Shown: positions 38,875 through 63,292, numbered from the stretch's first letter. The stretch: DNA of 64,000 nucleotides from Micavibrio sp. (GCA_020718105.1 DYDA01000006.1:5442-69441); one strand, 5' to 3'. A program made the numbers and translations. Notes: a model not told the origin generated them from the sequence alone.

Positions 38875-38949
38875 GGGTGCGTAGCTCAGCGGTAGAGCAT
38901 TACCTTCACACGGTAGGGGTCACAGGTTCAATCCCTGTCGCACCCACCA
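38875..38949 (+). tRNA. tRNA-Val (anticodon CAC), CCA encoded
   Basis: Acceptor gggtgcg/cgcaccc, anticodon loop ttCACac, T-arm acaggttcaatccctgt; 75 nt. Confidence 0.85.
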
Positions 38950-39043
38950 CGCTTTTCAAGGGGTTAGCGATTTTGTAACCAGCTCAAAACATTACAGCTG
39001 TAATGTTTGATTATGGATGCGCGGCCACACGTGAGCACTCCAT

Positions 39044-46530: not shown

Positions 46531-47199
46531 ATGGTATCCTTCATGGACATTACAGGCAGACAAATACGCGCCGCACGCGGCCTCCTCGGGTGGAAGATGG
46601 AAGACCTAGCCGATAAGGCAGGCCTGACCCGTATCACCATTCGCCAAATTGAAAACGAAATAGTACAGCCTCAAGAAAAGACGCTGGCCAAGATTTACGC
46701 AGTTTTCGATAAATTCGGCGTTGAGTTCCTGCCCGACGAAGGCATGCGTATCCGCAAACAGGACACCCGCATTTATTCCGGCAAGGCTGGCTATCGGCAG
46801 TTTCTTGACCATGTCTATGAAACGCTTAAGGGTGGCGGTCATATACGCCAGTTCAACTTTAGTGACATGCGCTATCTCCCCAACGAAGAGACCTTCGTCG
46901 CGAATCACTTCCTGCGTATGGGGTCGATCAAGGGACTGGATTCAAAAGTGCTTGAAATCGGGGATGAAACTAAACACCCCCTCGCCTATTGCTCTTATCG
47001 CAAGAATGATAAAAAGTTCAAGGATATGGCCCCTTGGTACCTTTATGGCGACTATCTTGTTTTGTCGCTGAATGAAAGCGGCGGAAAACGGGAGTTTATC
47101 ACCATTCGCTCCAAACTGCTGGCTGAGCGTTATCTGAAAGAGTTCGATATCTTCTGGAACATGGCAACTTCTGAGAAAAAGAAGAAGGGCACCAAATGA
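46531..47199 (+). CDS. XRE-family HTH regulator with C-terminal domain of unknown function (paralog A)
   Basis: N-terminal Cro/C1-type HTH (IRAARGLLGWKMEDLADKAGLTRITIRQIE); paralogous to 62591..63292; 222 aa. Confidence 0.8.
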   Translation: MVSFMDITGRQIRAARGLLGWKMEDLADKAGLTRITIRQIENEIVQPQEKTLAKIYAVFDKFGVEFLPDEGMRIRKQDTRIYSGKAGYRQFLDHVYETLKGGGHIRQFNFSDMRYLPNEETFVANHFLRMGSIKGLDSKVLEIGDETKHPLAYCSYRKNDKKFKDMAPWYLYGDYLVLSLNESGGKREFITIRSKLLAERYLKEFDIFWNMATSEKKKKGTK

Positions 47200-48870: not shown

Positions 48871-51528
48871 TTATTTGCGAAACTGCGCTGATAGTCCAGA
48901 GAGAGTTGTGTTGGGCCTAACAGCATCGTGAGGCACGAGAACGTATGTCCACGGCTTACCACCGTTCTCCATCTCGTGCTTCGTGGCCGCTTCGCACCAC
49001 TTGATGGCGGCACGGGCTTTTTGTTGAACGGCGTCCGCTTCAACTTCATCGGCACGTTTGGTTTCGATGAGGAACTTCTCTCCGTCTGTTTCTACGACAA
49101 AATCCGGTTCATATCCTTCGTTATCATTTGTGTAGATTTTGACGTCATTTCGGAGGGGTTTGAACCATTTGAGGACTTCCTTGCTATCTTCGAGTAAAAT
49201 GGCCATCTGGCGCTCGGTGTCTGAATCAAACTTCTGCTGCGGGTAAAGGCACTTTGAAAAGCCCTCAAATACCATCCCGCGTATATCCGAAACATTGGCG
49301 AGGGTCTGCCGAAAGTTTCTGACTTTTTCTCCCGCATCAATTGTCACCGCGCCCATTTTAGGCTGTTCAAAACCACGTGTGACTGAGGCCTGAAAATCCG
49401 TATAGCCAAGTTTTACATGCTCATTCATCTGCGCGTGGATTAAATCGGCGAGTTTCGTGCGGTAAAATTGGACAACATTTTTGGTTTTATCGGCATCCTT
49501 ACCCAAATATGAAGCGACATACGCCACCATCTGCCCCGCCAGCTTGTAAAGCAGGTCTGCGTGATCGTCATAAGAGACGTCATCCTTATCAATCAAAACG
49601 GATACGACGTAATCTTCTAAACGCGCTTCTTGCCCTATAGCTTCTCCCTTGGCCATTTCTTCGCGTTCAGAGGTGCGTAAATGCTGGATGAGGATTTTAT
49701 CGTCCACTGGCTGAAGGTGCGGAAGGTCTTTTGTGTTTAGATCAAAATCCGTGAACTCATAGCTATTTGATCCAATAGGTGTCACGGTCACGCGCGGAAT
49801 ATCGATGGTGTTATCGATATAGGCCTTAATTTGCCTCCGCACTATGTCTTCAACATTTGGCTTGTCCGCGATAACGTCAAGTGAGCCTTGTGCGGGCGTC
49901 ATTTTTTCCATCACGCGAGCAACCATTTTTTCCTGAACCTCTGGGTTCAAAAGGTTCCGTGAGCTTGGTAAATGTTCTTGTTCTTTAATCGCCTCAAAAA
50001 CGGCTCTTGCAATAGGCCGCTCAGCTTCAGTAAATAAAGGCTGTTGCTCTGGTTTTGTGCCTTCGCCAGAAATTATCCGTTCGATATTCGACTTAATCTC
50101 AACCGCCTGTTTGGGCTTTGCAGCAATGTCCTTACCAATTATTACACCAGTGCGGATGATAGAATGCTGATCGTTGGCCTCCTTGATAATTTCGTCAAAG
50201 CGGTCATGGGCAACGATGGTTAAACGATCCACGGCAGCAACGCCTGTGCGCTTGCCATAGGGCAAACGAAGGCCGCGCCCAATGGACTGCTCGACTAAAG
50301 TGCGTGAGTTGGCTGCACGCAAAGGCACAATGGTATAAAGGTTGGTAACGTCCCATCCTTCCTTCAGCATATTGACGTGAATGACGATTTCGGTCGGCTC
50401 ATTGGGATCTTCGACGGCAAGCAAACGTTGAACGGTCTCATCCTTTTCCTCGCCACGCTGGGCTGAGTGAACGGTGATAACGCGATCCTTGTAACGACCA
50501 TCAAAAAAGGCATCTGACTTGATCATCGCCATCAAGTTTTCGGCATGCGTCGTGTCCTGCGCCACCACAAGGATGAACGGTTTCACATAAGGTCGTGAAT
50601 TATTGTCGGCATAGACCTTCAACTCAGCCTTTGCGTTTTCATGAATGCAAATGGCGTCTTCCAGCTTGATCTTTTCGAGCTCGTCTTCCGTAAAATTCTT
50701 CGGGTTGAAGTTCTCACGCGTCGCAACCGCCGGTTCCTTCACATAGCCATCTTCCATCGCCTTATAAAGGGGGTAGCCGTAAATGACGTTTTTGAAAGGG
50801 ATGGCGTTCTTCCCGTTTTCAATTTGAGGCGTCGCGGACAGTTCAAGGCCGATAATAGGGTTCAGTTCGTTTAGTGCCCTGATGCCCGCCGAGGCGCGAT
50901 AACGGTGTGATTCATCCATCAGCAACACGAGATCGTCTAGTTTAGAAAGATATTCAAAATAGCTTTCGCCCAGATATTCCGAAAGCCGCTTGATGCGGGG
51001 TGCTGCACCTCCGCGCGTTTCGGAATTGATCTTGGAGATGTTGAAGATGTTGATATGGATGTTGTCAGCCTGTCCGTACAAATCCGTGCCGCGAATACCG
51101 CGCCCGCTTTCATAATTATCGCCCGTGATGACTTCCGGCGGCGTGATGGCAAGCTCGGCAATGCCTTGAAAGACGTATTTTGGCGTGTTGGGCGTAAAGT
51201 CGGCGATGAGCTTGTTATAGATCGTCAGGTTTGGTGCCAATACAAAGAAGTGTTTCATCCCATGCGCAAGATGCAAATAAGCAATGAATGCGCCCATAAG
51301 CCGAGTTTTGCCGACGCCCGTTGCAAGGGCAAAGCAGAGAGATGGAAAGTCTCGCTCAAAATCCTCAACACTCGGAAACTCGGACTTGATGGTCTCAAGA
51401 GCGGCGACCACGTCGCGATCTTTGTCGAGAGAGATGATCTCTGTCACACGCGCAAGAATCTCAAGCGACTCCTTCTGCGGTGTGCGGAGGGACAGACGGT
51501 TCGAAATGGCGTTGAGATGACGATTCAT
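48871..51528 (-). CDS. res: type III restriction enzyme Res subunit (SF2 helicase plus C-terminal PD-(D/E)xK nuclease)
   Basis: Walker A ATGVGKT, DEAH-like LMDESH, C-terminal PDFVVETDGEKFLIETK nuclease motif; 885 aa. Confidence 0.9.
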   Translation of the reverse strand: MNRHLNAISNRLSLRTPQKESLEILARVTEIISLDKDRDVVAALETIKSEFPSVEDFERDFPSLCFALATGVGKTRLMGAFIAYLHLAHGMKHFFVLAPNLTIYNKLIADFTPNTPKYVFQGIAELAITPPEVITGDNYESGRGIRGTDLYGQADNIHINIFNISKINSETRGGAAPRIKRLSEYLGESYFEYLSKLDDLVLLMDESHRYRASAGIRALNELNPIIGLELSATPQIENGKNAIPFKNVIYGYPLYKAMEDGYVKEPAVATRENFNPKNFTEDELEKIKLEDAICIHENAKAELKVYADNNSRPYVKPFILVVAQDTTHAENLMAMIKSDAFFDGRYKDRVITVHSAQRGEEKDETVQRLLAVEDPNEPTEIVIHVNMLKEGWDVTNLYTIVPLRAANSRTLVEQSIGRGLRLPYGKRTGVAAVDRLTIVAHDRFDEIIKEANDQHSIIRTGVIIGKDIAAKPKQAVEIKSNIERIISGEGTKPEQQPLFTEAERPIARAVFEAIKEQEHLPSSRNLLNPEVQEKMVARVMEKMTPAQGSLDVIADKPNVEDIVRRQIKAYIDNTIDIPRVTVTPIGSNSYEFTDFDLNTKDLPHLQPVDDKILIQHLRTSEREEMAKGEAIGQEARLEDYVVSVLIDKDDVSYDDHADLLYKLAGQMVAYVASYLGKDADKTKNVVQFYRTKLADLIHAQMNEHVKLGYTDFQASVTRGFEQPKMGAVTIDAGEKVRNFRQTLANVSDIRGMVFEGFSKCLYPQQKFDSDTERQMAILLEDSKEVLKWFKPLRNDVKIYTNDNEGYEPDFVVETDGEKFLIETKRADEVEADAVQQKARAAIKWCEAATKHEMENGGKPWTYVLVPHDAVRPNTTLSGLSAQFRK

Positions 51529-51533
51529 AGGGA

Positions 51534-52025
51534 TTATCCGATGTTAAGAAGTTCGCGCCGCTTGGAGTCAAAAGTATTAAACACATTCCGATTTACTGAT
51601 TTCAGTTGTTTGACAGAACGCTCAACAGATTCCATATACGAACTTTGGTCTGTGGGATGTCCTTCTTCAAGTGAAGTAAGCATATGAGACAAACAATTTT
51701 GCAAATCTGTATCATCTGGAAGCAATCCTTGGAGGGCTTTGATCGCTGCATTTGTACGAAAGGCTAGGTCGTAAGTTGGTTGATATATTTGAACCGAGCT
51801 TATCTGCTGCATAAAGTCAGATATAATATTAAAATGTGAGGCCAGCAGTTCAGCCTGTTGAATTCTTCGAGATTTGTTTGCTTCTTGAGCGGAACGTTCT
51901 GCCGCATCGCTTGAACGTTTAGAATCTCGTTTTGCCCACACGGAAATGCCTGTTCCGGTCGCGGACATACACAGGGCGAGAAAAGAGAGCCAATTTGCTA
52001 TATCGTCACTCATCGTCGCCTCCAA
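51534..52025 (-). CDS. hypothetical protein with N-terminal TM helix, between the mod remnant and res
   Basis: 163-aa ORF, 5-nt gap to res start, 20-nt overlap with the mod-fragment stop. Confidence 0.5.
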   Translation of the reverse strand: MEATMSDDIANWLSFLALCMSATGTGISVWAKRDSKRSSDAAERSAQEANKSRRIQQAELLASHFNIISDFMQQISSVQIYQPTYDLAFRTNAAIKALQGLLPDDTDLQNCLSHMLTSLEEGHPTDQSSYMESVERSVKQLKSVNRNVFNTFDSKRRELLNIG

Positions 52026-52914
52026 ACAAAGAGGGTTCGGAGGATTTGGCTTTTGCCTTGGCCTTAGCTTTCAGTTTTCGCGGGGTTGGGATATCGACTT
52101 GCTCCTCTTCGGCCAAGGGAAGGTTTTGGACGTTGAGGCTGTAATCGTCGTGGCCCCATTCGCATTTGGTCAGCACGGCGCGGGGGATTTTGCGCAGGGT
52201 TAGGTTGGGGAAGGCCTCGGCTTTGCCGCGAAACGCCGAGCAGCAGATGAGGAGGCTTCGATTGTCGCCCACTTCCTCGGACAGGGCGGCGAGTTGCGCC
52301 TGATCTAACGTTTGGGTGGTGACATAGATGAAATCCGTCTCGGTCGAATGCCCTTGCTGCCAATAAACGCTGTCACTCGGCGCATAGGTGAAGCCCATCA
52401 GCTTGCACATGGCCTGCGTCAGCATGACCGCGTTGTATTCCTTGTTGATGACAGCCTGGCTGTACTTGTCCATCGTGATGAGGGATGGTGCGAGCGCGAA
52501 ATACCGAAAACCGCCGCCGCCTTTCCACGCTGCCGCTTCGGTAATGCCACCTTTGTCCTCGCCATCAATGACTTTCTTGAGGCGCGGGATGATATGAGTA
52601 TGGCAATGCTCGCCAAGCTCAATCATAATCCAACGTCGCCTCATTTTATGGGCGACAGCACCCGTTGTGCCGGAACCAGCAAAGGAGTCGAGGACAAGGT
52701 CGTTAGGGTTGGTAGCAATATGAAGAAGTGTATGAATTAGACGTTCAGGTTTGGGTGTTGAAAAGACATCATTGCCAAAAAGAGCTAACATTTCCTTCAT
52801 GGCATCTTGATTGTGTCCAGCTAGTGTATGTTTCCATACCCGTCCCCCAAACAAGCCCTGTTCGTACGAGAGCACCGCAAGTTGCCACATATTCGTCTTC
52901 CGTGGAAAAGACAC
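52006..52914 (-). pseudogene. mod: truncated type III DNA methyltransferase (Mod), C-terminal fragment only
   Basis: Contains motif I region (VFSTPKPERLIHTLLHIATNPNDLVLDSFAGSGTTG) and a Mod-like C-terminus. The N-terminal DPPY motif and target-recognition domain are absent. Its 5' 146 nt overlap the upstream ORF in another frame. Confidence 0.65.
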
Positions 52915-53428
52915 CAGATTCTATCGTTTCCTTCTGTGTGCGCCTATAAGCCTCGGTCGCAGCCCTACTGATTTCTTTTGTGTCTAATTGATTGGCTTTT
53001 TCTTTCTCGATTTGCTCATTGAAAGATTTGTGCAGCTTTCCTAAGACAATGATCTCTTCATATCGCAGAGAATCGATAATGTCCGCATAATATAAAAACT
53101 CATCGGCTCTCAATACTTTTGCTGCCTTTTGCCCTGCGATAATGCGCGCAAGAAGTCGAAGATTTGTTCGCGCGGTTCCTTCCTGTGCAGCTCGCATGTA
53201 GCGATAAACGATTGCTGCCACTTCATCAACCTCACAGGCTTCCCATATATCTTTTTCTCCCGCGCTGATTTCTAAGAGTAAAATTTCTCTGGCTGCACTC
53301 AGTCGTATTTTGAAAAGGTTTTGAACCGCAATTCCTGCTACAGAGCCGCCAAAAACATCGAAAGCCCCTGCGATGTCTCCAATAAGGGCGCTATAATACT
53401 GCGGAAGATGTATCGTTTTATCTTCCAT
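52769..53428 (-). CDS. hypothetical protein, last gene of the SNF2 operon
   Basis: 219-aa ORF; start overlaps the MBL gene stop by 11 nt; no recognizable motifs. Confidence 0.55.
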   Translation of the reverse strand: MEDKTIHLPQYYSALIGDIAGAFDVFGGSVAGIAVQNLFKIRLSAAREILLLEISAGEKDIWEACEVDEVAAIVYRYMRAAQEGTARTNLRLLARIIAGQKAAKVLRADEFLYYADIIDSLRYEEIIVLGKLHKSFNEQIEKEKANQLDTKEISRAATEAYRRTQKETIESGVFSTEDEYVATCGALVRTGLVWGTGMETYTSWTQSRCHEGNVSSFWQ

Positions 53429-54371
53429 AGGAAGGCCTGCTTTTATAAATGTTTCTTAGGCTATCTAGGTTCATCGAAAGAAAATGATGCTTTTTGATGG
53501 CAAAGTCCTTGTACGAAGACACTTTTGTTGAGTTTGATATCAAATTGTAGACCCTAAAGACACTATTGTGCGGGGGTAAAGATTGGGCAATTATGTCGCC
53601 TGTTTTTGTTGTAAAGATCGGGATATCTAGGTCGAACAAACGATCTCGAACATCTTGTCTAGGATGTTCAAACTGATTGTCATAATTGCTGCTGCATACA
53701 GCCAGTTGAGGTCGGACACGTTCCAAAAAGTTTTTTGAGTTAGTAGGACAGTCTGCTCCATGATGAGCTAAAATAAGGATGTCAATTTCTCTCTTGAAAA
53801 TGCCACATCCCCTGAGGCGAGAGCCAATGTTCACATCTTCAACGTCGCCAAGACTTGCAACATTAAAACAGCCCTCACGAAACACCTTGACTGTCGAATT
53901 GTCATTGGCTTTTTCGAAAAAGATCTTAGGGCCATAAAAAACGTTTCTGTATCCAAGTTCTTCTGCTGATTTCAATCCATTAATGTAGTTTGGGTTTACA
54001 CACACACAACTCACAGGGGTGCCATCTATGGTTCCTTTGGCTTCATAATTCTCGATGGCTTTTTGGCATGCCTTGCCATTATCACTTTCGGGCAAATATC
54101 CGGGGTATTCAACCTGTTTGGGTTTTAGCGTTTCAAGAATACTTTTGAGATCAGAAAAAGTGCAGTGATCTTGATCCCAGCTGGTAATATGTAAGCAATC
54201 AATAAACTGCTTACCGCAAAGTTCCATTTCTTGGTGTATATTTGCGCGGTTAACGTCATTCAGTCGCGCTTCAATCAAGGTAAACTTTCCTGCACCAAAG
54301 TATGAAAAGGAAGAACCCGCTTGCCCCAGCTGGTATGCGCGAAAGCGAGTGACAATTTCTTGTGCGGCCAT
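53418..54371 (-). CDS. MBL-fold metallo-hydrolase related to the ComEC/Rec2 beta-lactamase domain
   Basis: ITSWDQDHC (S/H-x-D-x-DH) and LAHHGADCPTNSKNFLERVRPQLAVCSS resemble ComEC motifs (HADQDHIGG / KVAHHGSKTSS...FL..V.P..A..S); 317 aa. Confidence 0.7.
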   Translation of the reverse strand: MAAQEIVTRFRAYQLGQAGSSFSYFGAGKFTLIEARLNDVNRANIHQEMELCGKQFIDCLHITSWDQDHCTFSDLKSILETLKPKQVEYPGYLPESDNGKACQKAIENYEAKGTIDGTPVSCVCVNPNYINGLKSAEELGYRNVFYGPKIFFEKANDNSTVKVFREGCFNVASLGDVEDVNIGSRLRGCGIFKREIDILILAHHGADCPTNSKNFLERVRPQLAVCSSNYDNQFEHPRQDVRDRLFDLDIPIFTTKTGDIIAQSLPPHNSVFRVYNLISNSTKVSSYKDFAIKKHHFLSMNLDSLRNIYKSRPSYGR

Positions 54372-54862
54372 TATAACTCTTCCTTTCTGCCTCCAGAAGT
54401 TTTAGCGGCTCGAGACCTTTCTATTCCCCAAACGGCCTCAGAAACTTCTTCAAGTTTTTTAATAAATTTATCGACGTTGAGGCCAGCAACGAAAGCAAAG
54501 GCATAAAACCCAATTTCGCTTGCATCAGGCTGGATGCTGGATTCCAGCACGATCAACCCTGCCTTAAGAAACAGATAACTCGCACCGCCACAAGTAAGAC
54601 TCGCGATTGGGCGTAAGAAATACCATACCTGCCACCTGGAGTCCCATTGATCGTAAACACAGACGTTCAAATAGACTCCTCTCAAACAATAGAGGAAGCC
54701 ACCAAGTCCACCAGAAAATGCACAGATAAGCCCAACTTTGTATGGAACTAAAAGGGGTTCATGACCTGCTAACACAAAAGCAATCCCTGCAAGGTTAGCG
54801 ACGGCACATAAGACAAGGTAAAAGATAATAACTACAATCATTCGAGCCCCCACCTCGCGCAA
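54371..54862 (-). CDS. small integral membrane protein (3-4 predicted TM helices)
   Basis: Hydrophobic 163-aa ORF; overlaps SNF2 3' end by 25 nt and abuts the MBL gene start. Confidence 0.65.
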   Translation of the reverse strand: MREVGARMIVVIIFYLVLCAVANLAGIAFVLAGHEPLLVPYKVGLICAFSGGLGGFLYCLRGVYLNVCVYDQWDSRWQVWYFLRPIASLTCGGASYLFLKAGLIVLESSIQPDASEIGFYAFAFVAGLNVDKFIKKLEEVSEAVWGIERSRAAKTSGGRKEEL

Positions 54863-57846
54863 AACAGCGGTTCAATCTCATGCCTGCTGTCCTGCAATTG
54901 TTTTTCTAGTTGATTAATAAGCTCTTCGCGTCTTGCGTCAACTTTGTCTTGGCTGGTGAAAAGTTCGTGCCGCTTTTGTGAGCGGCGTTTTTCAAAGGCA
55001 GCTTTTTGTTTTTGAAACGCCAGCTTTTCCGCTAGACTTATCAATTGCTTAGACTGGCGGTCTGCCTCGCGGATGTCGCGGTCAAGTTGCTTGAGTTCAA
55101 GCTCTAGCCCCGTCTTCAGGTCTTCGGCCCAGCGGTCGAGCTTATCCAGCTCTTCCTCAAAATAGTGGTGATTGCTGGCTTCCGATTCGTTCAAAAGCAA
55201 GGTCATCCGGTTCTGGCGGGCGGTTTCGATGATGGCTGCATAAGGACATGAGCGGAAATCTTCCGAGCACGATGCTGAAAGGAGAAGCAGCTTCTCGCCA
55301 AACTCTGGTAGGAGGATCACGCCGCTTTCATTGCAGGCGGTGAAGATGAGAGATTCCGTTTCCTCAAACGTATTGATCGTCAGCTTGTCCAGCCAGAGCC
55401 AGCCTCGTTTGCCGCACTGTTCGTCCAGCAACGCAACTTTGTGCGGATGAGAAGAAAGATCAAACGTCAACGTCACGAGAGGAGTCTCGATATCACGCCC
55501 CTTTTGGATTACACGCTCGCCCATAAGATCGGACAGGCGATAAGGATAGCCTGTGACAGGAACCTTGGCCGTCCCCTTATGGAGCCGCTCCAATGGATCG
55601 ATGGCAGCTACAGCTTTTGTTTCCAGATAATGATAAATGGGAGTGCGGTCGCCTTCGCTGGGGCGTTCGCCTTTGGCAATAAAATCGGGATCGTCTCCGA
55701 AAATTAGTTTCTCGTCGTTGAAGACGAAGGTTCCATCGTAGATGAATTTCGTCAGCTCCCAAAAATGATGGGTCACGATATCAAGGCGCTGTTTGGTTGC
55801 TTCCATACTGAATTTCAAATGTCGTGTGACATCCTCGTCGAAATGCTCGAACAACATATTGCGCGTTTCGGCTATGCGGGCTTGGATTGGCTCTTCCATT
55901 TCGGATTGAAGGCGCGCAAAGGCTTCTTCAATTTCCTTGGGGTGGCGGCAGGTTTCAAAGATATCCAAAATACGCTTTTCAAAATCAATGCCGGACTCAA
56001 CGCGGCCTAGCACCTCATCTGATGATCCAAAGACACCGTCAAAAAGCTGAAACTTCTCTTTCAGTAGTTCATAGATACGCTGGTCAGCGAGATTGTCTTG
56101 GTTCAGGAAGTTAATGACGACCACGTCGTGCTTTTGGCCATAACGATGGCATCGGCCAATGCGCTGCTCAATGCGCTGAGGGTTCCAAGGCAGGTCGTAA
56201 TTGACAATCAAAGAACAGAACTGAAGGTTGATGCCTTCGGCGGCAGCTTCAGTGGCGATCATCACCTCGGCATGATCCCGGAAGAAATCAACAAGCGCCA
56301 TACGCATATCGACATTCTTGGAGCCGGAGATACGGCCTGTGGTGGCGTTCTTCTCCTGCCACATGCCGTAGATGTCTTTGGAAAGCTCATCCGTATTCTG
56401 TCCATTAAAAGTCACGACCTTGCCGCGAAAGCCGTTGTCTTCAAGATATTCTTTCAGATAACGCTGGGTGCGGCTGGATTCCGTGAAAACGAGAGCTTTG
56501 CGCGCGCCGCCCAACACACCCATACGGGAAAAACCGGATTGAAGTGCGGATAAAAGCGCTTTGGCTTTGGTCTCTATTTTGATGGAACGGGCAAGGGCGG
56601 CAAAGCCTTCGATCTGTTTGATCTCGTAGTTCAGTTTTTCAATGTCGATGTCGCTGTGGTTGGGTTGGGTGGCAGCGTGTTCTTCTTCCTCTGCTGCCTC
56701 GGCATATTCGATATCGATATCCTGTCCGAATATAAACGCGCCGCGCAAGTTCAGTTTCTCTTCTTTGCGGGTCTCTCGCATTTTCTCAAGGCGCTCTTTG
56801 ATGGTTTGCAACGTGCCAACCAATGCATAAGCTGACGATGCTAGAAGCTTGCGGATAACGAGAACGACCAGCTTTCTCTGTGCCCACGGAATAGCATAGG
56901 TATCTTGCTGGAGGAGGAAGTCAGAGACCTCGTCATAAAGTCTTTGTTCTTCTGCTGACAAACTAAACGGCTGCAGCATGGCTTCGCGTTTCGTATAACG
57001 GATATACTCCAGAACTTGCCGCCGAAGCGTGCGCTTAACAAAAGGCGCGAGGCGTGATTTGAGGTCGTCGATATTTGGGTTATTATTTCCATAAGCGGAT
57101 TTGAACGTATCAATGCCACCAAAGATCCTGTCATCAATCAATGAGGCAAGGCCGTAAAGCTCCAGAAGGGAGTTTTGCAGCGGTGTTGCTGTCAAAAGCA
57201 CTTTTTTGTGATCAGCCAGAGCCGCCTGAATCGTGCGGCCCATTTTGTTGTCTTTTTTGAAGAGATTTCGCAGCTTGTGCGCTTCATCGATCACAACCAT
57301 ATGCCATGGCATTGCTTTAAGTGCGTCGGCGTAACGATTGGCAAACTGATAAGAGATAATCACAACGCCTTTGAAGTCAAAAGGATCGCTGCCACTCTGC
57401 TGTCGTTCTGTGTAATTGCTGCTTTCAAGCACAAGGGTTGGAAGGTTGAATTTTTCTTCAAGCTCTATTGACCATTGGCGGCGCAGAACAGCGGGGCATA
57501 TGACAACAAGCCGTCGCTTATGCTCTGCCCAAAGTTGGCAAAGCAAGATACCAGCCTCAATAGTTTTTCCAAGGCCGACCTCATCGGCCAGCATAACGCC
57601 TTTGGAAAGCGGCGAGCGTAGTGCAAAGAGAGCCGCTTCAATTTGGTGTGGATTTAAATCTACGGCAGCATCAAAAAGCGAGGTGGTAAGGCGATCAACA
57701 ACGGTGGCGGACTTCTTTATCGAAAGCTCATGTGCAAAGTATTTCGCGTGATAGGGAGTGATGGACGTCTTTGTTCCTTTGTTCTCCTGCCAAAAAGGTT
57801 CTGTTTCTGCTTTCATTCGTCCAGTATCCAGTCCCAATTTCCACAC
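54838..57846 (-). CDS. SNF2-family helicase/ATPase with ~400-aa C-terminal extension including a coiled-coil
   Basis: SNF2 N-domain (DLNPHQIEAAL, LADEVGLGKT, DEAH-like VIDEAHKLRN) and helicase C-domain (GGEGINLQ..., QRIGRCHRYGQ); 1002 aa. Confidence 0.9.
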   Translation of the reverse strand: MWKLGLDTGRMKAETEPFWQENKGTKTSITPYHAKYFAHELSIKKSATVVDRLTTSLFDAAVDLNPHQIEAALFALRSPLSKGVMLADEVGLGKTIEAGILLCQLWAEHKRRLVVICPAVLRRQWSIELEEKFNLPTLVLESSNYTERQQSGSDPFDFKGVVIISYQFANRYADALKAMPWHMVVIDEAHKLRNLFKKDNKMGRTIQAALADHKKVLLTATPLQNSLLELYGLASLIDDRIFGGIDTFKSAYGNNNPNIDDLKSRLAPFVKRTLRRQVLEYIRYTKREAMLQPFSLSAEEQRLYDEVSDFLLQQDTYAIPWAQRKLVVLVIRKLLASSAYALVGTLQTIKERLEKMRETRKEEKLNLRGAFIFGQDIDIEYAEAAEEEEHAATQPNHSDIDIEKLNYEIKQIEGFAALARSIKIETKAKALLSALQSGFSRMGVLGGARKALVFTESSRTQRYLKEYLEDNGFRGKVVTFNGQNTDELSKDIYGMWQEKNATTGRISGSKNVDMRMALVDFFRDHAEVMIATEAAAEGINLQFCSLIVNYDLPWNPQRIEQRIGRCHRYGQKHDVVVINFLNQDNLADQRIYELLKEKFQLFDGVFGSSDEVLGRVESGIDFEKRILDIFETCRHPKEIEEAFARLQSEMEEPIQARIAETRNMLFEHFDEDVTRHLKFSMEATKQRLDIVTHHFWELTKFIYDGTFVFNDEKLIFGDDPDFIAKGERPSEGDRTPIYHYLETKAVAAIDPLERLHKGTAKVPVTGYPYRLSDLMGERVIQKGRDIETPLVTLTFDLSSHPHKVALLDEQCGKRGWLWLDKLTINTFEETESLIFTACNESGVILLPEFGEKLLLLSASCSEDFRSCPYAAIIETARQNRMTLLLNESEASNHHYFEEELDKLDRWAEDLKTGLELELKQLDRDIREADRQSKQLISLAEKLAFQKQKAAFEKRRSQKRHELFTSQDKVDARREELINQLEKQLQDSRHEIEPLFCARWGLE

Positions 57847-58721: not shown

Positions 58722-61700
58722 CTACGAAAGTTCAAGAGCAAGGATATTGGGCGTCCGCTCTGGATCAGCGTGCCTTAACAGGCCATAGCCTATTCCCGCC
58801 ATGCCGCACATCAGTCCCGGCGTCGTTGCTCCGCCCGGCATGTCACAGTCCCATCTTTCTTTTTTCCGATAGTCAGCCATGATAGCGGATAGCATGGCGC
58901 AGGCCCTGTCATGATCTCCTGTAGCAAGAAAGATTTCCGAGTTGCCAAGATTTCCGTGACACAGGCATTGATTGCTGATGAGGCCCTGCTTCCATGTCGC
59001 CTCGCAAGCCAAACGCACACGCTCGTCGCAAAAATCCTTTCCAAGAACGTCCGGCATTTTCAGAAGAGCAAGACCGATGCCCGGAGCGCCATAGCACCAA
59101 TGACAGGTTGGAGCACCGCCGCGCGCGTCTACCCATGTTTGTTGTTTCTCATCGAAAAAACTTTGTTCATAGGCAAACGCTTGTTGCGCAAGCCCTGTCC
59201 ATTTTTCTTCTTTCGTATACTGCGCCCATTCGGCCAAGGCCCACGCAATTCCCGTGACACCGTGAGAAAGTCCGCCCAGTCTCTTTTCTTCCGTTTGAAC
59301 AGTCTTCCACGTGACGCCAAATTCTTGCTTCTCAGATGAAGCTGCCAATCGGTCAGCAGCGGCAGCGGCAACCTGAAGCGCTTCCGTCGATCCGTTCTGG
59401 CGATAGACACCCATTGCGACAAGAAGAACACCAGCAGCGCCGTAAATAAGATCGTTGGATTCATCTTTTTTGACCAATCTTTCTAACACAGCAAAGGCGT
59501 TTTTTCTCCCACTTCCCTCATCGCAATTCAAAGCGTCCGACAAAAGGCTGTCCGCGTAAATCAAGCCAGCGATTCCGTTAAACGCTCCGCAGCCATGCCC
59601 GCGAGAGCGGTCGGCAAAAACTTTCCGAATGGTGGCAAGAGCGTCCGTGGCTATAGCCTTGAATCTCTCGTCACGCGTCTGTTTATACAATTGCCCCATG
59701 AAAAGGCCAATGCCCGGCGTTCCATCATAAAGAGATAGCCTTGGAACGTCAGCCGTGTAGCTTTCTTTATCGACCGGTAACAAACCGGACCATATCGGCG
59801 TATCATTGACGTAATAGGCGCTGTCAAGCAACGATTGGCCTATCTTTGATGCCTCATAAATAAGCTCATCTGAGGAAGTTTTCTTTCTCTTACAAAAAGA
59901 AATAGGCCTGTTTGGGTTTTCTTCTTTCTCCGCTGGCATTGTACTTTTGAGTGCCATACGGATGGTTTCCGTTTGCGGAACCAACAATTTTTCGAGAGAT
60001 CGCAAACGCCTTTTAACAGACTGCATTCCCGTGCAAGCAAAAAAGTTCTTGTGAGGTCTTCCTGTTGACGAAAAAATATCTTTTGAATCCGGTGTTGTCC
60101 AGAAATAGGGCACGTCCCCATTCCACAAATCCTCGACCTCGCTAGGGATGATGGATTCAAGATGGTGCGCCAACAGGACGCCCGCCCAAAGTTCGCCGCC
60201 GATCATCATATCGCTTTCGACGGCATCGCCCAAAACAGAGGGGTGTGCCATAGACTGGAGAATATGAACATAGTCCCGCGTGTTTCTCGTTACGTATCGA
60301 ACGGGGACGGATCGAAAGACATTCAAGATGCTCCGTGGGCCAAGCAGAAAGACCCGATGTTTCTTGAATGTGGAAATGGCGGACTCAAAGCCAGCAATAA
60401 TCTCCCCAAGATGCTCATACGCCCGGCACGGGATGCCATCGACATATGGAATATTCTTTTCCTGTGGCATAGAAACTTTTTGCATCACAAACCGCGCGTC
60501 GTCCCTGCCGATATTTTCCATCATCAGCGCTTCCGTCGGCGCTGGCTGTTCGCCACAGGCACCAATGGCGCTTAGATCGTACACACCTCCAGGCCCCATC
60601 AGGCGATATGGCAGTAAGCCGGTTCTGAATAAAAGGTCTTCAAAGGCCTGAAGGTAGCATTGCTGAAAAAACGCGCTCTTTCCTGAGGGCCTTATTGAGC
60701 GGTCAAACATTACCTCAACATCAACGAGATAAGGATCGCCCCCAGAAGCGATCAAGTTTTCATGGTGCAAATCCGTAATTCCCAGCAACCACGAAATCGC
60801 AAGGAGAGACCCAAGCTTCTTGTAATATATGGGAATGTCGGAAGGTAACGCATCCGTGTTCGCCTCGACAAACGAGCAATAGCCATAGGTCCCACAATCA
60901 AGAACCGAAACGGTTTTGGGCGCAGGCGCGTCCGAGCAAGAAGCAAACCAATTGATGAGCGCATTATAAGCGACATCTGCGGCAAGCGAGCGCGGCTTAT
61001 AAACAAGGATGCCTTCCGCGAAGTGAAGTATAGCCACGACATGTCCGCCGCAATGTGCATCGCCCGTGCCCCAGTGTATCGACTGAAGGGTTCTTAAAGA
61101 TAACCCCAAAGAAGACTCAACTGTCGCTTTATCTTTTGCCAAACGTTCCAGTGCCTTTACGGAAGCATTAATTGTGTTCGCAGCAGTCGTGGAGACCAAG
61201 CGCCACAAAACGGGGTATTTACCCCAAAACCTACGTTGGTTTTCTTTCTCGCCAAGGGAACCCACAAAAGCGCCGAACCTCTCTTCCGGAGTTTGCGAGG
61301 ATTTGTTCTTCCGCTTGATTCGAAAAAGATTCGCCTCCATCGCCATACTTGGAAGCATGAGGTTCGCTAATCTTTGGGAAAAATAAATATCATATTCTGC
61401 CAGCAACCTTTCACTGTCCGAGCCAAGCCCAACGGCCTGCAAGGCATTGATGGCTTGAACCATACGTTTCATAGCATGGGAGAATAACGGCGCGCATAAG
61501 GCCTCAAAGCCATATCCGGATTCTCTCTCATGCTCGCTGGAAAAAGCGCCAGCTTCTTCTGAAATCATTTCAGGGTCACACCAATACGGAGCAATCTCAC
61601 CGTATAGTGCGTCGGAAGCAAAACGGCTTTCATTCAGAACGCCGCCTATCCTTTCAAGCGCTCCGCCCATCATGCCTACGTGTTTGCGCAGAAGATTTTT

Positions 61701-61847
61701 CTTCCGTTGGAAATAACGGTTGCTCCACCATTTTATCTTGGGTTCCGTTGCTGCGGCGACATAGTCTGATAAATCGTTTTGATGCCCAGTTTGCGCAAAT
61801 CGCTCGGATAGTGATAGTGCACGGCTTAAAATGGTTTCTTCGATCAT
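58722..61847 (-). CDS. lanM: class II lanthipeptide synthetase (LanM-like: N-terminal dehydratase domain plus C-terminal LanC-like cyclase)
   Basis: Kinase-like catalytic loop ITDLHHENLI (DxHxxN) and DVEVMFD in the N-terminal half. LanC-like GxxG repeats and CHG motif in the C-terminal half (GTPGIGLFMGQLY, GAAGVLLV, GVTGIAWAL, WCYGAPGIGLALL, CHGNLGNSEIF, GMAGIGYGLL). 1041 aa. Confidence 0.85.
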   Translation of the reverse strand: MIEETILSRALSLSERFAQTGHQNDLSDYVAAATEPKIKWWSNRYFQRKKNLLRKHVGMMGGALERIGGVLNESRFASDALYGEIAPYWCDPEMISEEAGAFSSEHERESGYGFEALCAPLFSHAMKRMVQAINALQAVGLGSDSERLLAEYDIYFSQRLANLMLPSMAMEANLFRIKRKNKSSQTPEERFGAFVGSLGEKENQRRFWGKYPVLWRLVSTTAANTINASVKALERLAKDKATVESSLGLSLRTLQSIHWGTGDAHCGGHVVAILHFAEGILVYKPRSLAADVAYNALINWFASCSDAPAPKTVSVLDCGTYGYCSFVEANTDALPSDIPIYYKKLGSLLAISWLLGITDLHHENLIASGGDPYLVDVEVMFDRSIRPSGKSAFFQQCYLQAFEDLLFRTGLLPYRLMGPGGVYDLSAIGACGEQPAPTEALMMENIGRDDARFVMQKVSMPQEKNIPYVDGIPCRAYEHLGEIIAGFESAISTFKKHRVFLLGPRSILNVFRSVPVRYVTRNTRDYVHILQSMAHPSVLGDAVESDMMIGGELWAGVLLAHHLESIIPSEVEDLWNGDVPYFWTTPDSKDIFSSTGRPHKNFFACTGMQSVKRRLRSLEKLLVPQTETIRMALKSTMPAEKEENPNRPISFCKRKKTSSDELIYEASKIGQSLLDSAYYVNDTPIWSGLLPVDKESYTADVPRLSLYDGTPGIGLFMGQLYKQTRDERFKAIATDALATIRKVFADRSRGHGCGAFNGIAGLIYADSLLSDALNCDEGSGRKNAFAVLERLVKKDESNDLIYGAAGVLLVAMGVYRQNGSTEALQVAAAAADRLAASSEKQEFGVTWKTVQTEEKRLGGLSHGVTGIAWALAEWAQYTKEEKWTGLAQQAFAYEQSFFDEKQQTWVDARGGAPTCHWCYGAPGIGLALLKMPDVLGKDFCDERVRLACEATWKQGLISNQCLCHGNLGNSEIFLATGDHDRACAMLSAIMADYRKKERWDCDMPGGATTPGLMCGMAGIGYGLLRHADPERTPNILALELS

Positions 61848-61984
61848 CGCAGCCCTTTATGTCATTAGGAAGTTTGTTAAAAGATGGATCTCTAAAAATC
61901 GTTCTTATATTTACAATTTCTGCTTTGACCGCGCCTGATGTCACAATTGGGCGAGAAGCGCGGCCAGAGCAAGAACTAACGGGT

Positions 61985-62452
61985 TTATATTGGGCCTTCG
62001 GGCACTTTGAATTTGCAGCGACCGCTTTGACAATATGCTGTTTGGCAGGCCGTTGTTTGGCAAGCCGTCGTTTGGCAAACCGTTGTTTGGCAAATAGTCG
62101 TGCCACAATTCCCAGTCAGATAAGCCCGTCCAGACATATTCTGCGCGGAACGAACCATGGGCGCTTCGCCAGCAGGATTGATCGTGACAATCTTGACAAG
62201 CTCTTTGCGATCCATGCCCTTCAGCACTTCTTCAAGATGAACCAGATCAACCTTAAGCTCCTTGCCGACCTGCTGCTGCCATCCCTTCCGATTCTTGATG
62301 AAAGGATCGGCCATCTGGGGATTCATCCACATCAATTCGACAAATTGCGACAGAACATCCTCCCCTGAGGCCTTCTCTTTCGCTTTTGCTTTGATCCCAT
62401 CATACTTTCCACGAGTCATAGCGGAAACGGTTTTTCTGTGTCTTTCTAACAT
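61985..62452 (-). CDS. lanA: lanthipeptide-like precursor: NHLP-type long leader plus Cys/Thr-rich repetitive core
   Basis: Start ATG 62452 with RBS AAGGAGGA. Leader resembles nitrile-hydratase leader peptides (ELMWMNPQMADPFIKNRKGW...GKELKVDL). C-terminus NCGTTICQTTVCQTTACQTTACQTAYCQSGRCKF has four CQTT pentapeptide repeats. 137 bp upstream of lanM. Confidence 0.7.
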   Translation of the reverse strand: MLERHRKTVSAMTRGKYDGIKAKAKEKASGEDVLSQFVELMWMNPQMADPFIKNRKGWQQQVGKELKVDLVHLEEVLKGMDRKELVKIVTINPAGEAPMVRSAQNMSGRAYLTGNCGTTICQTTVCQTTACQTTACQTAYCQSGRCKFKVPEGPI

Positions 62453-62590
62453 GAACCAAGTCCTCCTTATATGGTTGTGCGAGCTTTTCATTCTGTGGAG
62501 GGCCGATGCCCGCTTCAATCGGCCTTTTCATATAAAATCTGTAACCGCGTTATATTTTTTCGTTCTTTGTGCTCGAAAAGCAGATAAAAG

Positions 62591-63292
62591 CTACTTTCCA
62601 GATTTTTTCTTGCTTTGTCTCCCTTTTGCATGAACGGGGGTCTGCGTGGGCATTGTCTTGTCCCACAGAGACGCAAACTGCGCACGAAACGCATCGGCCA
62701 TAGCAGATGACTTGACAGATACTATCTTCGTCCATGCTCCGGAAGTCGTCGGAAAAGGCGCGTACTTGTCGCCGTACACGCAAAACGAAATTGTATCGAC
62801 GTATTTTCTTGATATTGAGCGAATGTTCGCACCTTGAATAATTTCGAGCTCTGGTTCCGCTTTCGTTATCAGGCATTGAATGCTAACAGAACTCGCTTGA
62901 TTAAATAGTTCGTCCATCTTTTCAAAGTTACGCCCAAATACCTCCCTAAGGTCGTCCATAGACGATGCCATGATCGCAATATGTCCCCCGTTCTTTTGAA
63001 CGGTTTGTTTGATGTCATCGAAAAGCTGGCTCATTCCGTTCGGCACCGTAAAAACAGATATGTCCTCAAAACATCGGCGCACGCCATCAGCATCCATAAA
63101 CTCAATCCCTGCGCTTTCTATTGCCTGACGGATGAGTCTCATCGTTGAATCGCGAGGCGAGATATGTCCCAATTCAAGCTTGCGAATTGTCGCAACCGAT
63201 AATTGTGCCGCATTTGCCAGATCTTCTTGTGACCAATCAAGCAACGCCCGAGCCGCTTTCATCTGTTTTGCGCTGAGGGGGCGGATAATCAT
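62591..63292 (-). CDS. XRE-family HTH regulator with C-terminal domain of unknown function (paralog B), upstream of lanA-lanM
   Basis: N-terminal HTH (MKAARALLDWSQEDLANAAQLSVATIRKLE), same architecture and lysine-rich tail as 46531..47199; 233 aa. Confidence 0.8.
   Translation of the reverse strand: MIIRPLSAKQMKAARALLDWSQEDLANAAQLSVATIRKLELGHISPRDSTMRLIRQAIESAGIEFMDADGVRRCFEDISVFTVPNGMSQLFDDIKQTVQKNGGHIAIMASSMDDLREVFGRNFEKMDELFNQASSVSIQCLITKAEPELEIIQGANIRSISRKYVDTISFCVYGDKYAPFPTTSGAWTKIVSVKSSAMADAFRAQFASLWDKTMPTQTPVHAKGRQSKKKSGK

What the first reader, a model, noticed from the sequence alone, without database searches (positions are those of the whole stretch)
58722..63292. Orphan class II lanthipeptide-like module (XRE regulator, NHLP-leader precursor with 4x CQTT repeats, LanM) inside a mobile/defence island, with no transporter, protease or immunity genes
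LanM is recognisable from its DxHxxN catalytic loop and its LanC-like GxxG/CHG motifs. Directly upstream is a 155-aa precursor whose leader resembles nitrile-hydratase-type leaders. Its C-terminus is a tandem CQTT(I/V/A) repeat ending in CQSGRCKF, with 6 Cys and about 10 Ser/Thr available for thioether rings. Canonical class II clusters have a LanT (ABC transporter with C39 peptidase) and immunity genes. Here the neighbours are instead an XRE regulator, an SNF2 helicase operon and a type III restriction remnant, on an integrase/Mob-bearing island of lower GC. With no export machinery, the product could be an intracellular modified peptide. This fits the idea that lanthipeptide-type RiPPs can act in phage defence or in conflict between mobile elements. 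From memory only, I believe anti-phage lanthipeptide-like systems have been proposed recently in actinomycetes, but I cannot verify that here.
Basis: partly seen in the sequence, partly recalled or inferred. Interest (0 to 1): 0.88.

Follow-up and report, generated by a model that had tools for sequence, protein, structure and literature searches.

The report
Mobile two-gene lanthipeptide cassette, new precursor family
A mobile DNA island carries an enzyme and its peptide substrate that together should make a peptide stitched into about seven small sulfur-bridged rings; the pair belongs to a rare, undescribed family that always travels without export, cleavage or immunity genes and often sits among anti-phage genes, so it is a testable candidate for a chemical defence in Gram-negative bacteria.

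Summary
58722-61847(-) encodes a full class II lanthipeptide synthetase (LanM: TIGR03897 735 bits, cut-off 304; catalytic and zinc residues present). 61985-62452(-) encodes a 155-aa precursor with a 15-nt tandem-repeat core.

Corrections:
- The core has 7 Cys, not 6, each with Thr/Ser at -3.
- The protein ends ...CKFKVPEGPI.
- The leader is not NHLP or Nif11; none of 29 family members hits those models.
- The XRE regulator is one of four island paralogues, not a conserved part of the module.

The precursor defines a rare family absent from Pfam and NCBIfam (about 27 clusters among 1.84 billion proteins). It has a confidently predicted five-helix leader domain, an invariant NPAG motif, a ~20-residue linker without a double-glycine site, and a variable (S/T)xxC-rich core. 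In 13 of 13 dereplicated loci it lies directly upstream of a distinct LanM clade (38-46% identity; other LanMs 34% or less).

No C39-ABC transporter, protease or immunity gene was found in any locus. An ABC ATPase lies within 10 kb in 1/11 clade loci against 18/38 other LanM loci.

Here the pair sits in a 28.8-kb mobilizable element in tRNA-Val. Four or five of 11 informative loci adjoin RM, CBASS, Qat, Dazbog or BrxR. The biosynthetic reading is solid. A defence role is plausible but untested.

The parts
58722..61847 (-). lanM: class II lanthipeptide synthetase, 1041 aa. The dehydratase domain (DUF4135) is encoded at about 60096-61217. The LanC-like cyclase domain is encoded at about 58740-59741.
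   Evidence: TIGR03897 scores 735 bits against a 304 cut-off. PF13575 gives 1.3e-95 and PF05147 gives 3.2e-65. The closest solved structures are LicM2 (6st5, 2e-88) and CylM (5dzt, 1e-43), with catalytic motifs aligned. D359/H361/N364, H862, C918, C963 and H964 are invariant in the clade.
61985..62452 (-). lanA: 155-aa precursor of a previously undescribed family.
   Evidence: An AAGGAGGA ribosome-binding site lies at 62461-62468. Exhaustive phmmer finds 26 related 50%-identity clusters with E between 1e-14 and 1e-3. A family HMM finds a member directly upstream of lanM in 10/10 clade loci. There is no Pfam, NCBIfam, PHROGs or PADLOC family for it.
62183..62365 (-). Leader domain, residues 30-90: a predicted five-helix bundle containing the invariant W42 and W58.
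62168..62179 (-). The invariant NPAG motif (residues 92-95) at the end of the leader domain. It is followed by a ~20-residue unconserved linker that has no double-glycine site.
   Evidence: P93 and G95 are invariant across 29-33 sequences. The first Cys lies 18-25 residues after the motif in nearly all members.
62015..62116 (-). Core peptide, residues 113-146: seven Cys at 5-residue spacing, each with Thr or Ser at -3 (LTGNC, GTTIC, QTTVC, QTTAC, QTTAC, QTAYC, QSGRC). The predicted product is seven consecutive i->i+3 (methyl)lanthionine rings.
   Evidence: The sequence is read directly. TRF finds a 15-nt period at 62039-62093. Across the family, the commonest Cys-Cys spacing is 5, and the residue at -3 of Cys is T or S in 109 of about 185 cases.
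62591..63292 (-). XRE/HTH_3 regulator, 233 aa, directly upstream on the same strand. It belongs to an island-backbone family and is only a possible regulator of the cassette.
   Evidence: PF01381 matches at 2.7e-08. Paralogues lie at 46531-47199 and twice beyond the window. Homologues occur only in L006, L007 and L009.
38903..38957 (+). attL: the left copy of a 55-bp perfect direct repeat, made of the 3' part of tRNA-Val plus 8 nt. With its partner it bounds the 28.8-kb integrative mobilizable element that carries the cassette. The partner copy lies about 3.7 kb beyond the window end.
   Evidence: tRNA-Val lies at 38875-38949. The repeat was found between the window and L001 positions 4091-4145. 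The island also carries an integrase (41865-42899), a relaxase (44381-45136) and NikA/MobC (45189-45701).

Best explanation
This is a self-contained two-gene class II lanthipeptide cassette (lanA plus lanM) carried as cargo by a 28.8-kb integrative mobilizable element.

Mechanism:
- Inferred from the model and from conservation: LanM recognises the precursor through its folded five-helix leader domain and the NPAG segment.
- Established chemistry for the LanM family: LanM phosphorylates and eliminates Thr and Ser in the tandem-repeat core, and its zinc-dependent cyclase domain then adds the Cys thiols.
- Shown for the sequence, inferred for the rings: all seven Cys have Thr or Ser at -3, so the predicted product is a string of up to seven small i->i+3 thioether rings.

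Fate and role (inferred from context only):
- The clade never carries a C39-ABC exporter, a leader protease or immunity genes.
- The leader has no double-glycine site, and the precursor has no signal peptide.
- I therefore favour a product that acts in or on the producing cell, possibly with the leader domain still attached or trimmed by host proteases.
- I favour a role in genetic conflict on behalf of the mobile element, such as phage or foreign-DNA defence.

Confidence by step: about 0.9 that this is a functional LanA/LanM pair of a new precursor family; about 0.4 that it acts without export; about 0.25 that it is specifically anti-phage.
For: - The LanM domain models and catalytic or zinc residues are all present.
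- The precursor family is conserved and strictly paired with this LanM clade in 13/13 dereplicated loci.
- The leader fold is confidently predicted, and the (S/T)xxC periodicity is regular.
- There is no ABC ATPase in the window and no transporter in the 10 kb beyond it.
- An ABC ATPase lies within 10 kb in 1/11 clade loci against 18/38 non-clade loci (p=0.033).
- The double-glycine site present in the TIGR03898 precursors of the nearest LanMs is absent from this family.
- Mobile-element hallmark genes occur in about 7/11 informative loci.
- Known defence genes lie within 10 kb in several loci: the window (type III Res, DrmD-like SNF2), L008 (type III RM, BrxR, patatin), L011 (QatABCD, type III RM) and L137 (type IIG RM, Dazbog, CBASS, Abi). 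L142/L143 carry only remnants.
- Precedent: lanthiphages sit in defence islands, rarely adjoin ABC transporters (18.3% against 63.4%) and appear to act inside the cell.
Against: - There is no experimental evidence of any kind.
- Defence co-location is confounded by mobile-element carriage, since such elements concentrate defence genes. The sample is only 11 loci and has no matched control.
- Three loci (L010, L014, L145) lie in ordinary chromosomal, metabolic contexts. L010 has an ABC exporter and an MFS gene 0.2-2 km... 0.2-2 kb from lanM.
- About half of the unrelated LanM loci also lacked a detectable ABC gene in my crude test, so absence is not rare.
- Exporters and proteases can be encoded elsewhere in the genome, as for prochlorosins (established knowledge). 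The rest of the source genome was not searched.
- PADLOC has no model matching LanM or LanA.
- None of the lanthiphage-specific features (LanB/LanC, LphD/E/F, the TxDxCxxxCxxxC motif) is present.
Confidence: 0.4

Rival explanations
1. An ordinary secreted lanthipeptide (bacteriocin or signal). Its exporter and leader protease are encoded elsewhere in the host genome, or are generic host functions. The mobile element carries only the substrate-enzyme pair.
For: Most characterised lanthipeptides are exported (established knowledge). Variable cores on a conserved leader, as seen here, are typical of antagonistic RiPPs. One clade locus (L010) has an ABC exporter and an MFS gene within 0.2-2 kb. 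20 of 38 non-clade LanM loci also show no nearby ABC gene in my test. Class II clusters in general co-locate with RM systems (Hourigan et al. 2025, PMC12715929).
Against: A nearby ABC gene occurs in only 1/11 clade loci, and it has no C39 domain. The leader has no double-glycine site and the N-terminal sequence read shows no signal-peptide-like hydrophobic stretch. The precursor is 130-180 aa with a folded domain. No immunity genes were found. A horizontally mobile cassette that depends on host-specific export would often arrive non-functional.
Confidence: 0.3
2. The modified LanA acts as a small protein rather than as a released peptide. The helical domain stays attached, and the ring-locked Cys/Thr tail serves as a rigid binding or metal/redox-active module for a function of the mobile element, such as regulation or exclusion.
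For: The leader is a confidently folded 60-residue domain and is more conserved than the core. No cleavage motif or protease is present. One sub-family has a conserved His/Cys-rich core, SCLHGTGTCGSCLHQTGTC. In four loci the cassette lies downstream of an island regulatory block of HTH_3 and small ORFs.
Against: Long leaders derived from folded proteins, such as NHLP and Nif11, are removed in known systems (established knowledge). The fold has no significant structural neighbour. No conserved partner gene exists beyond lanM.
Confidence: 0.15
3. A decaying remnant of a larger lantibiotic cluster that lost its transporter and immunity genes, and is no longer functional.
For: The adjacent type III Mod gene is truncated. 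One metagenomic copy of a clade lanM is split into 849-aa and 113-aa parts (L139).
Against: Both ORFs are intact, with every catalytic residue conserved. The same two-gene architecture recurs in 13 divergent loci at 38-46% LanM identity, which requires long-term purifying selection on the pair.
Confidence: 0.05

Closest known systems
Canonical class II (LanM-type) lantibiotic clusters, such as the lichenicidin, mersacidin and cytolysin systems
   Same: The enzyme is the same bifunctional LanM, with all catalytic motifs, and LicM2 is the best solved-structure match. As in those clusters, lanA lies immediately upstream of lanM. The leader shares the short W-x-D and NPAG motifs with the TIGR03898 mersacidin/lichenicidin-type precursors that accompany the nearest non-clade LanMs (L015, L055, L030).
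   Different: There is no LanT (C39-ABC), no LanP, no LanFEG or LanI, and no double-glycine site. The leader is about 100 aa with a ~60-residue folded helical domain. It does not match TIGR03898, and hhalign aligns only 13 columns at 12% probability. The core is a tandem array of (S/T)xxC units.
NHLP / Nif11-leader class II lanthipeptides (prochlorosin-type)
   Same: Both have a long leader derived from, or resembling, a folded protein, and variable cores on a conserved leader. In both, biosynthetic genes can be separated from export genes.
   Different: None of 29 family members matches TIGR03793, TIGR03798 or PF07862, even at E<=10. There is no GG cleavage site. Nitrile hydratase does not appear among the structural neighbours.
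Lanthiphages (Shomar et al. 2024, bioRxiv 10.1101/2024.06.26.600839)
   Same: Both are lanthipeptide genes located in defence islands or on mobile elements. Both usually lack ABC transporters and form a distinct phylogenetic clade. An intracellular role is conceivable for both.
   Different: Lanthiphages are class I (LanB/LanC plus LphD/E/F), are found only in Actinobacteria, and have a TxDxCxxxCxxxC core motif. That study found no defence-associated clade in other lanthipeptide classes, but its class-by-class survey covered Actinobacteria only. This cassette is class II, has two genes, and its named relatives are an Alphaproteobacteria MAG and Paraburkholderia domus.
Cys-every-fifth RiPP precursor CefA (NF038108)
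   Same: The core has Cys at 5-residue periodicity. Six family members give weak hits, the best at E=0.003.
   Different: All scores are below the cut-off (12.8 bits against 30 for the window protein). The similarity is compositional and confined to the core. The leader is different and so is the maturase, which here is LanM.

Membership tests
LanM, class II lanthipeptide synthetase (TIGR03897) | The full-length model score exceeds the curated cut-off, with an N-terminal DUF4135 dehydratase domain and a C-terminal LanC-like cyclase domain. | tested here: met
   735.4 bits against a 304 cut-off. PF13575 covers residues 211-584 and PF05147 covers residues 703-1036.
LanM, class II lanthipeptide synthetase (TIGR03897) | The kinase-like catalytic loop D-x-H-x-x-N, and the cyclase zinc ligands Cys/Cys/His plus the acid/base His. 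| tested here: met
   D359, H361, N364, H862, C918, C963 and H964 are invariant in the clade alignment and aligned to LicM2.
LanM, class II lanthipeptide synthetase (TIGR03897) | Dehydration and cyclisation of the cognate LanA. | not testable with these tools
   This needs co-expression and mass spectrometry.
Canonical class II lantibiotic gene cluster | A Cys/Ser/Thr-rich precursor gene adjacent to lanM. | tested here: met
   lanA ends 137 nt upstream of lanM on the same strand, with no terminator-like site between them. The pair is adjacent in 13/13 loci.
Canonical class II lantibiotic gene cluster | A LanT exporter (ABC transporter with an N-terminal C39 peptidase). | tested here: not met
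   There is no ABC ATPase in the 64-kb window and none in the 10 kb beyond it. One of 11 clade loci has a plain ABC exporter without a C39 domain. The rest of the source genome was not searched.
Canonical class II lantibiotic gene cluster | A double-glycine (GG/GA/GS) leader cleavage site. | tested here: not met
   There is no conserved G-G/A/S column between NPAG and the first Cys. By eye, a GG occurs in this linker in about one member of the 30 or so tails listed, P0140.
Canonical class II lantibiotic gene cluster | Immunity genes (LanFEG or LanI). | tested here: inconclusive
   No ABC genes were found, and no neighbour other than lanA is conserved across loci. LanI-type proteins have no general model, so an unrecognised one cannot be excluded.
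NHLP (TIGR03793) / Nif11 (TIGR03798, PF07862) leader precursors | A match to the leader HMM. | tested here: not met
   0 of 29 family members hit these models at E<=10 in NCBIfam or Pfam. As a positive control, TIGR03898 precursors from L015 and L055 do give weak NHLP hits, at E=0.002-0.005.
Mersacidin/lichenicidin-type leader (TIGR03898) | A match to the leader HMM. | tested here: not met
   No member hits the model. The L015, L055 and L030 precursors score 46-74 bits against a 23.5 cut-off.
Mersacidin/lichenicidin-type leader (TIGR03898) | Remote homology by profile-profile comparison. | tested here: inconclusive
   hhalign of A1 against A4 gives a 13-column match around NPAG, with probability 11.6%. 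The shared W-x-D and NPAG motifs are a lead only.
Lanthiphage anti-phage lanthipeptide clusters | Class I LanB/LanC enzymes with LphD/E/F accessory genes, in an actinobacterial host. | tested here: not met
   The enzyme here is a LanM. No PF04738, PF14028 or PF01135 neighbours were seen. The named relatives are Proteobacteria.
Lanthiphage anti-phage lanthipeptide clusters | Location in defence islands, and rarity of adjacent ABC transporters. | tested here: met
   Known defence genes lie within 10 kb in 4-5 of 11 informative loci. An ABC gene is nearby in 1/11. No matched control for mobile-element cargo was run.
Lanthiphage anti-phage lanthipeptide clusters | Protection against phage infection. 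| not testable with these tools
   This needs phage-challenge assays.

The most novel reading that the evidence does not exclude
The clade is a class II, two-gene counterpart of the lanthiphages in Gram-negative bacteria. It would be spread by integrative mobilizable elements, and its ring-locked peptide, possibly still attached to its helical domain, would act inside the cell to block phage or incoming foreign DNA. That would extend ribosomal-peptide chemical defence beyond Actinobacteria and beyond class I enzymes.
Probability: 0.22. Interest if true: 0.85.

Novelty: new variant of a known kind. Interest (0 to 1): 0.62.

Why it matters
Lanthipeptide-based anti-phage defence is so far known only for class I clusters in Actinobacteria. 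In those genomes the authors found no defence-linked clade in any other lanthipeptide class. Here a compact, easily cloned two-gene class II cassette recurs on mobile elements next to RM, CBASS, Qat, Dazbog and BrxR genes in proteobacterial-type genomes, and it never has export or immunity genes.

If it protects against phage or foreign DNA, it would show that this strategy arose independently. It would also give a minimal system for studying how a thioether peptide acts inside a cell.

Independently of function, the precursor family is absent from Pfam and NCBIfam. It has a folded 60-residue leader domain and a tandem (S/T)xxC core predicted to give a 'beads-on-a-string' ring topology. That makes it of interest for RiPP enzymology and engineering.

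Tried and rejected
1. NHLP or Nif11 leader. Rejected: no HMM hit for any of 29 members.
3. Homology to the mersacidin-type leader (TIGR03898). It is suggested by shared motifs, but hhalign is inconclusive.
4. The XRE regulator as a conserved part of the module. Rejected: homologues occur in only 4 of 13 loci, and there are four paralogues on this island.
5. A transporter just outside the window. None was found within 10 kb.
6. A phage-borne origin. No clade member occurs in the viral contigs.
7. The metagenome and genome scans with the LanM alignment mostly returned unrelated gut Firmicutes LanMs. Only L013, L014 and L054 were clade members. The unrelated loci were reused as an internal control.
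8. The word-index search with the single precursor found only itself. The family appeared only with the exhaustive search.
9. Operator-like inverted repeats, or a terminator between lanA and lanM. Nothing convincing was found.
10. Taxonomy of the source MAG (GCA_017973835.1) could not be obtained.
11. The weak Keratin_B2_2, PMG and CefA hits to the core are compositional and below their cut-offs.

Full report
**1. The observation**

- **LanM.** The 1041-aa product of 58722-61847(-) matches PF13575/DUF4135 (1.3e-95) and PF05147/LANC_like (3.2e-65). It scores 735 bits on TIGR03897 (LanM), whose cut-off is 304.
- Its closest solved relatives are LicM2 (6st5, 2e-88) and CylM (5dzt, 1e-43). The kinase-like loop TDLHHEN (D359/H361/N364), the SHG histidine (H862) and the zinc ligands C918 and C963-H964 are all present, and they are invariant among its relatives.
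- **Precursor.** The gene is 61985-62452(-), 155 aa. It starts at an ATG 8 nt after an AAGGAGGA ribosome-binding site.
- Its C-terminal part is LTGNC-GTTIC-QTTVC-QTTAC-QTTAC-QTAYC-QSGRC-KFKVPEGPI, encoded by a 15-nt tandem repeat (TRF: 3.7 copies, 90% matches).
- **Corrections to the finding.** There are seven Cys, not six. Three units are exactly CQTT. The protein does not end at CKF.
- All seven Cys have Thr or Ser at position -3.

**2. The leader is not NHLP**

- Neither this protein nor any of 29 family members matches TIGR03793 (NHLP), TIGR03798 or PF07862 (Nif11), even at E<=10.
- The only hits are compositional, sub-threshold matches of the core (Keratin_B2_2, CefA 'Cys-every-fifth').
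- As a positive control, genuine mersacidin-type precursors from other loci do give weak NHLP hits.

**3. A real but rare precursor family**

- A word-index search found only the protein itself.
- An exhaustive phmmer search of 1.84 billion representatives found 26 related clusters. Two further hits were low-complexity artefacts.
- The alignment shows four parts:
  - a variable N-terminus;
  - a conserved ~60-residue region with invariant W42 and W58;
  - an invariant P93-x-G95 within NPAG;
  - a ~20-residue unconserved linker, then a variable core with 4-10 Cys and 10-19 Ser/Thr.
- The first Cys lies 18-25 residues after NPAG in nearly all members.
- The commonest Cys-Cys spacing is 5, followed by 3. 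The residue three positions before a Cys is Thr or Ser in 109 of about 185 cases.
- No conserved double-glycine site is present.
- AlphaFold2 with this alignment predicts residues 30-90 as a five-helix bundle (pLDDT 94-97) and the rest as disordered.

**4. A dedicated LanM clade, always paired**

- LanM homologues fall into a group at 38-46% identity, followed by a gap to 34% or less.
- A family HMM finds a precursor directly upstream, on the same strand, in all 10 clade loci found through LanM.
- The three loci found through the precursor all have a clade LanM directly downstream.
- After dereplication this is 13 of 13 loci.
- All-against-all comparison of the neighbourhoods shows that nothing else is universally conserved.

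**5. No export, cleavage or immunity genes**

- The source contig (GCA_017973835.1, JAEMOK010000010.1) extends beyond the window. The next 10 kb hold HTH_3 proteins, unknowns, an acetyltransferase, a deacetylase and TldD/PmbA, but no transporter.
- tblastn with an ABC exporter finds no ABC ATPase anywhere in the window.
- Precomputed Pfam annotation of the other loci shows no Peptidase_C39-ABC protein in any of them. L010 alone has a plain ABC exporter and an MFS gene nearby.
- As an internal control I used the unrelated LanM loci returned by the genome, metagenome and viral scans. After dereplication, and requiring at least 8 kb of flank, an ABC ATPase lies within 10 kb of lanM in 1/11 clade loci against 18/38 other loci (Fisher p=0.033).
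- In the other loci the ABC gene usually lies 0.8-1.8 kb downstream of lanM.
- The difference is real but modest. The absence of a nearby ABC gene is not rare among LanM loci.

**6. Context**

- In the window the cassette lies inside a 28.8-kb integrative mobilizable element. The element is bounded by a 55-bp perfect direct repeat: 38903-38957, overlapping tRNA-Val, and a second copy 3.7 kb beyond the window.
- The element carries:
  - an LmuB-like SMC ATPase;
  - an integrase;
  - ArdC;
  - a relaxase;
  - NikA/MobC;
  - an intact type III Res gene with a truncated Mod gene;
  - a DrmD-like SNF2 helicase (679 bits);
  - four paralogous XRE regulators.
- Island GC is about 0.49, against 0.53 for the rest of the window.
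- Elsewhere the pair is found in these settings:
  - **L008:** next to type III RM, BrxR, patatin and TraG.
  - **L011:** next to QatABCD, type III RM and IS elements.
  - **L137:** next to type IIG RM, Dazbog, CBASS, Abi, an integrase and TraG.
  - **L142/L143:** next to IS66, a ThsA-Macro fragment and a GIY-YIG gene.
  - **L007 and L009:** on elements with an integrase or relaxase, and in L009 also an RHS toxin.
  - **L010, L014 and L145:** in ordinary metabolic neighbourhoods.
- No clade member was found in viral contigs.
- The named hosts are an Alphaproteobacteria MAG and Paraburkholderia domus.

**7. How it most likely works**

- The biosynthetic part rests on established LanM chemistry and on intact motifs: leader-guided phosphorylation and elimination of Thr/Ser, then zinc-dependent Michael addition of Cys.
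- The strict (S/T)-x-x-C register predicts up to seven consecutive four-residue (methyl)lanthionine rings.
- The fate and role of the product are inferred, not shown. Several facts argue that the product is not handled like a classical lantibiotic:
  - there is no exporter, protease or immunity gene across a divergent clade;
  - the leader has no double-glycine site;
  - the precursor has no signal peptide;
  - the leader is a folded domain.
- Frequent placement in the cargo or defence regions of mobile elements points to a conflict function.
- The published precedent is the lanthiphage family. It is class I and found only in Actinobacteria. It is enriched in defence islands, rarely lies next to ABC transporters, and appears to act intracellularly (bioRxiv 10.1101/2024.06.26.600839).
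- That study reported no defence-associated clade in other lanthipeptide classes within Actinobacteria.
- A 2025 survey found that canonical class II clusters in general co-locate with RM systems (PMC12715929). Co-location by itself is therefore not new.

**8. Comparison with known families**

- The enzyme is a member of the LanM family.
- The locus is not a canonical class II lantibiotic cluster, because LanT, the GG site and immunity genes are absent.
- The precursor is not an NHLP, Nif11 or TIGR03898 member by HMM.
- The nearest non-clade LanMs (L015, L055 and L030; 30-32% identity) have TIGR03898 precursors of the form IIRAWKD...NPAG...VAGG.
- The new family shares the W-x-D and NPAG motifs with these, about 30 residues further apart. 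Profile-profile comparison aligns only 13 columns at 12% probability, so descent from that leader type is a lead and not a result.
- The locus is not a lanthiphage by any defining gene.

**9. Verdict**

- The 'orphan module on a defence or mobile island' reading is supported and generalised to a clade.
- The NHLP label is wrong.
- The defence function is plausible but untested, and it is confounded by mobile-element carriage.
- I rate this a new variant of a known kind, with moderate-to-high interest because it is compact and directly testable.

Noticed in passing
window 48871-57846: A co-directional minus-strand array. It holds a DrmD-like SNF2 helicase (54838-57846, PADLOC 679 bits) and three genes of unknown function. 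One of these, 53418-54371, has weak PDC-M48B hits. It also holds a type III Mod reduced to its C-terminal ~260 aa (52006-52914; profile positions 300-560 of 575), a 159-aa ORF, and an apparently full-length type III Res (48871-51528, 761 bits). This could be a decayed RM system or a composite, undescribed defence operon.
   Followed up: partly
window 38875-38957 and about 3.7 kb beyond the window end (L001 4091-4145): A 55-bp perfect direct repeat, covering the 3' part of tRNA-Val plus 8 nt, delimits a 28.8-kb integrative mobilizable element. Its right end lies outside the window.
   Followed up: yes
window 39044-41617 (-): An 857-aa SMC/AAA_23 ATPase lies next to the integrase at the attL end of the island. 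It has modest LmuB (Lamassu) hits in PADLOC (62 bits) and no recognised partner gene. It may be another defence gene.
   Followed up: partly
window 43141-44109 (-): An ArdC-N plus zincin (MPTase-PolyVal) anti-restriction protein lies next to the relaxase. The island therefore carries both defence and anti-defence genes.
   Followed up: no
window 46531-47199 (+), 62591-63292 (-), and L001 5171-5809 / 6838-7503: The island carries four paralogous regulators (25-32% identity). Each has an N-terminal HTH_3 domain and a shared C-terminal domain of about 150 aa of unknown function. Homologues occur on the related elements L006, L007 and L009.
   Followed up: partly
window 28155-29669 (-): A dnaA gene lies in the chromosomal part of the window, so the chromosomal replication origin may be nearby. 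The island is therefore integrated close to the origin region.
   Followed up: no
L015 7747-7968, L055 9611-9820, L030 (~9.7-9.97 kb): Acidobacterial LanM loci (Terriglobia, Ca. Angelobacter), the nearest non-clade relatives, encode unannotated mersacidin/lichenicidin-type precursors (TIGR03898, 46-74 bits). These have IIRAWKD...NPAG leaders and an ABC gene 1-1.4 kb from lanM.
   Followed up: partly
L014 (Paraburkholderia domus), L010, L137, L145 and proteins P0131, P0134, P0135, P0148, P0153-P0158: One sub-family of the precursors keeps a nearly fixed His/Cys-rich core, STHGSCLHGTGTCGSCLHQTGTCGTCAAC, across leaders that are only about 30% identical. This contrasts with the variable cores elsewhere and suggests a specific conserved target or metal site.
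   Followed up: no
L007 8265-9275, L009 8143-9282, L013 1-285; L006 4640-7850: Possible tailoring genes occur in some sub-clades. A Methyltransf_28 gene lies divergently upstream of lanA in three loci. A methyltransferase, a 2OG-Fe(II) oxygenase and a GT2 gene lie upstream in L006.
   Followed up: no
L139 10468-13589: In one metagenome the clade lanM is split into 849-aa and 113-aa ORFs. This is a frameshift or an assembly error, and the otherwise identical contigs L137 and L138 have the intact 1051-aa gene.
   Followed up: no
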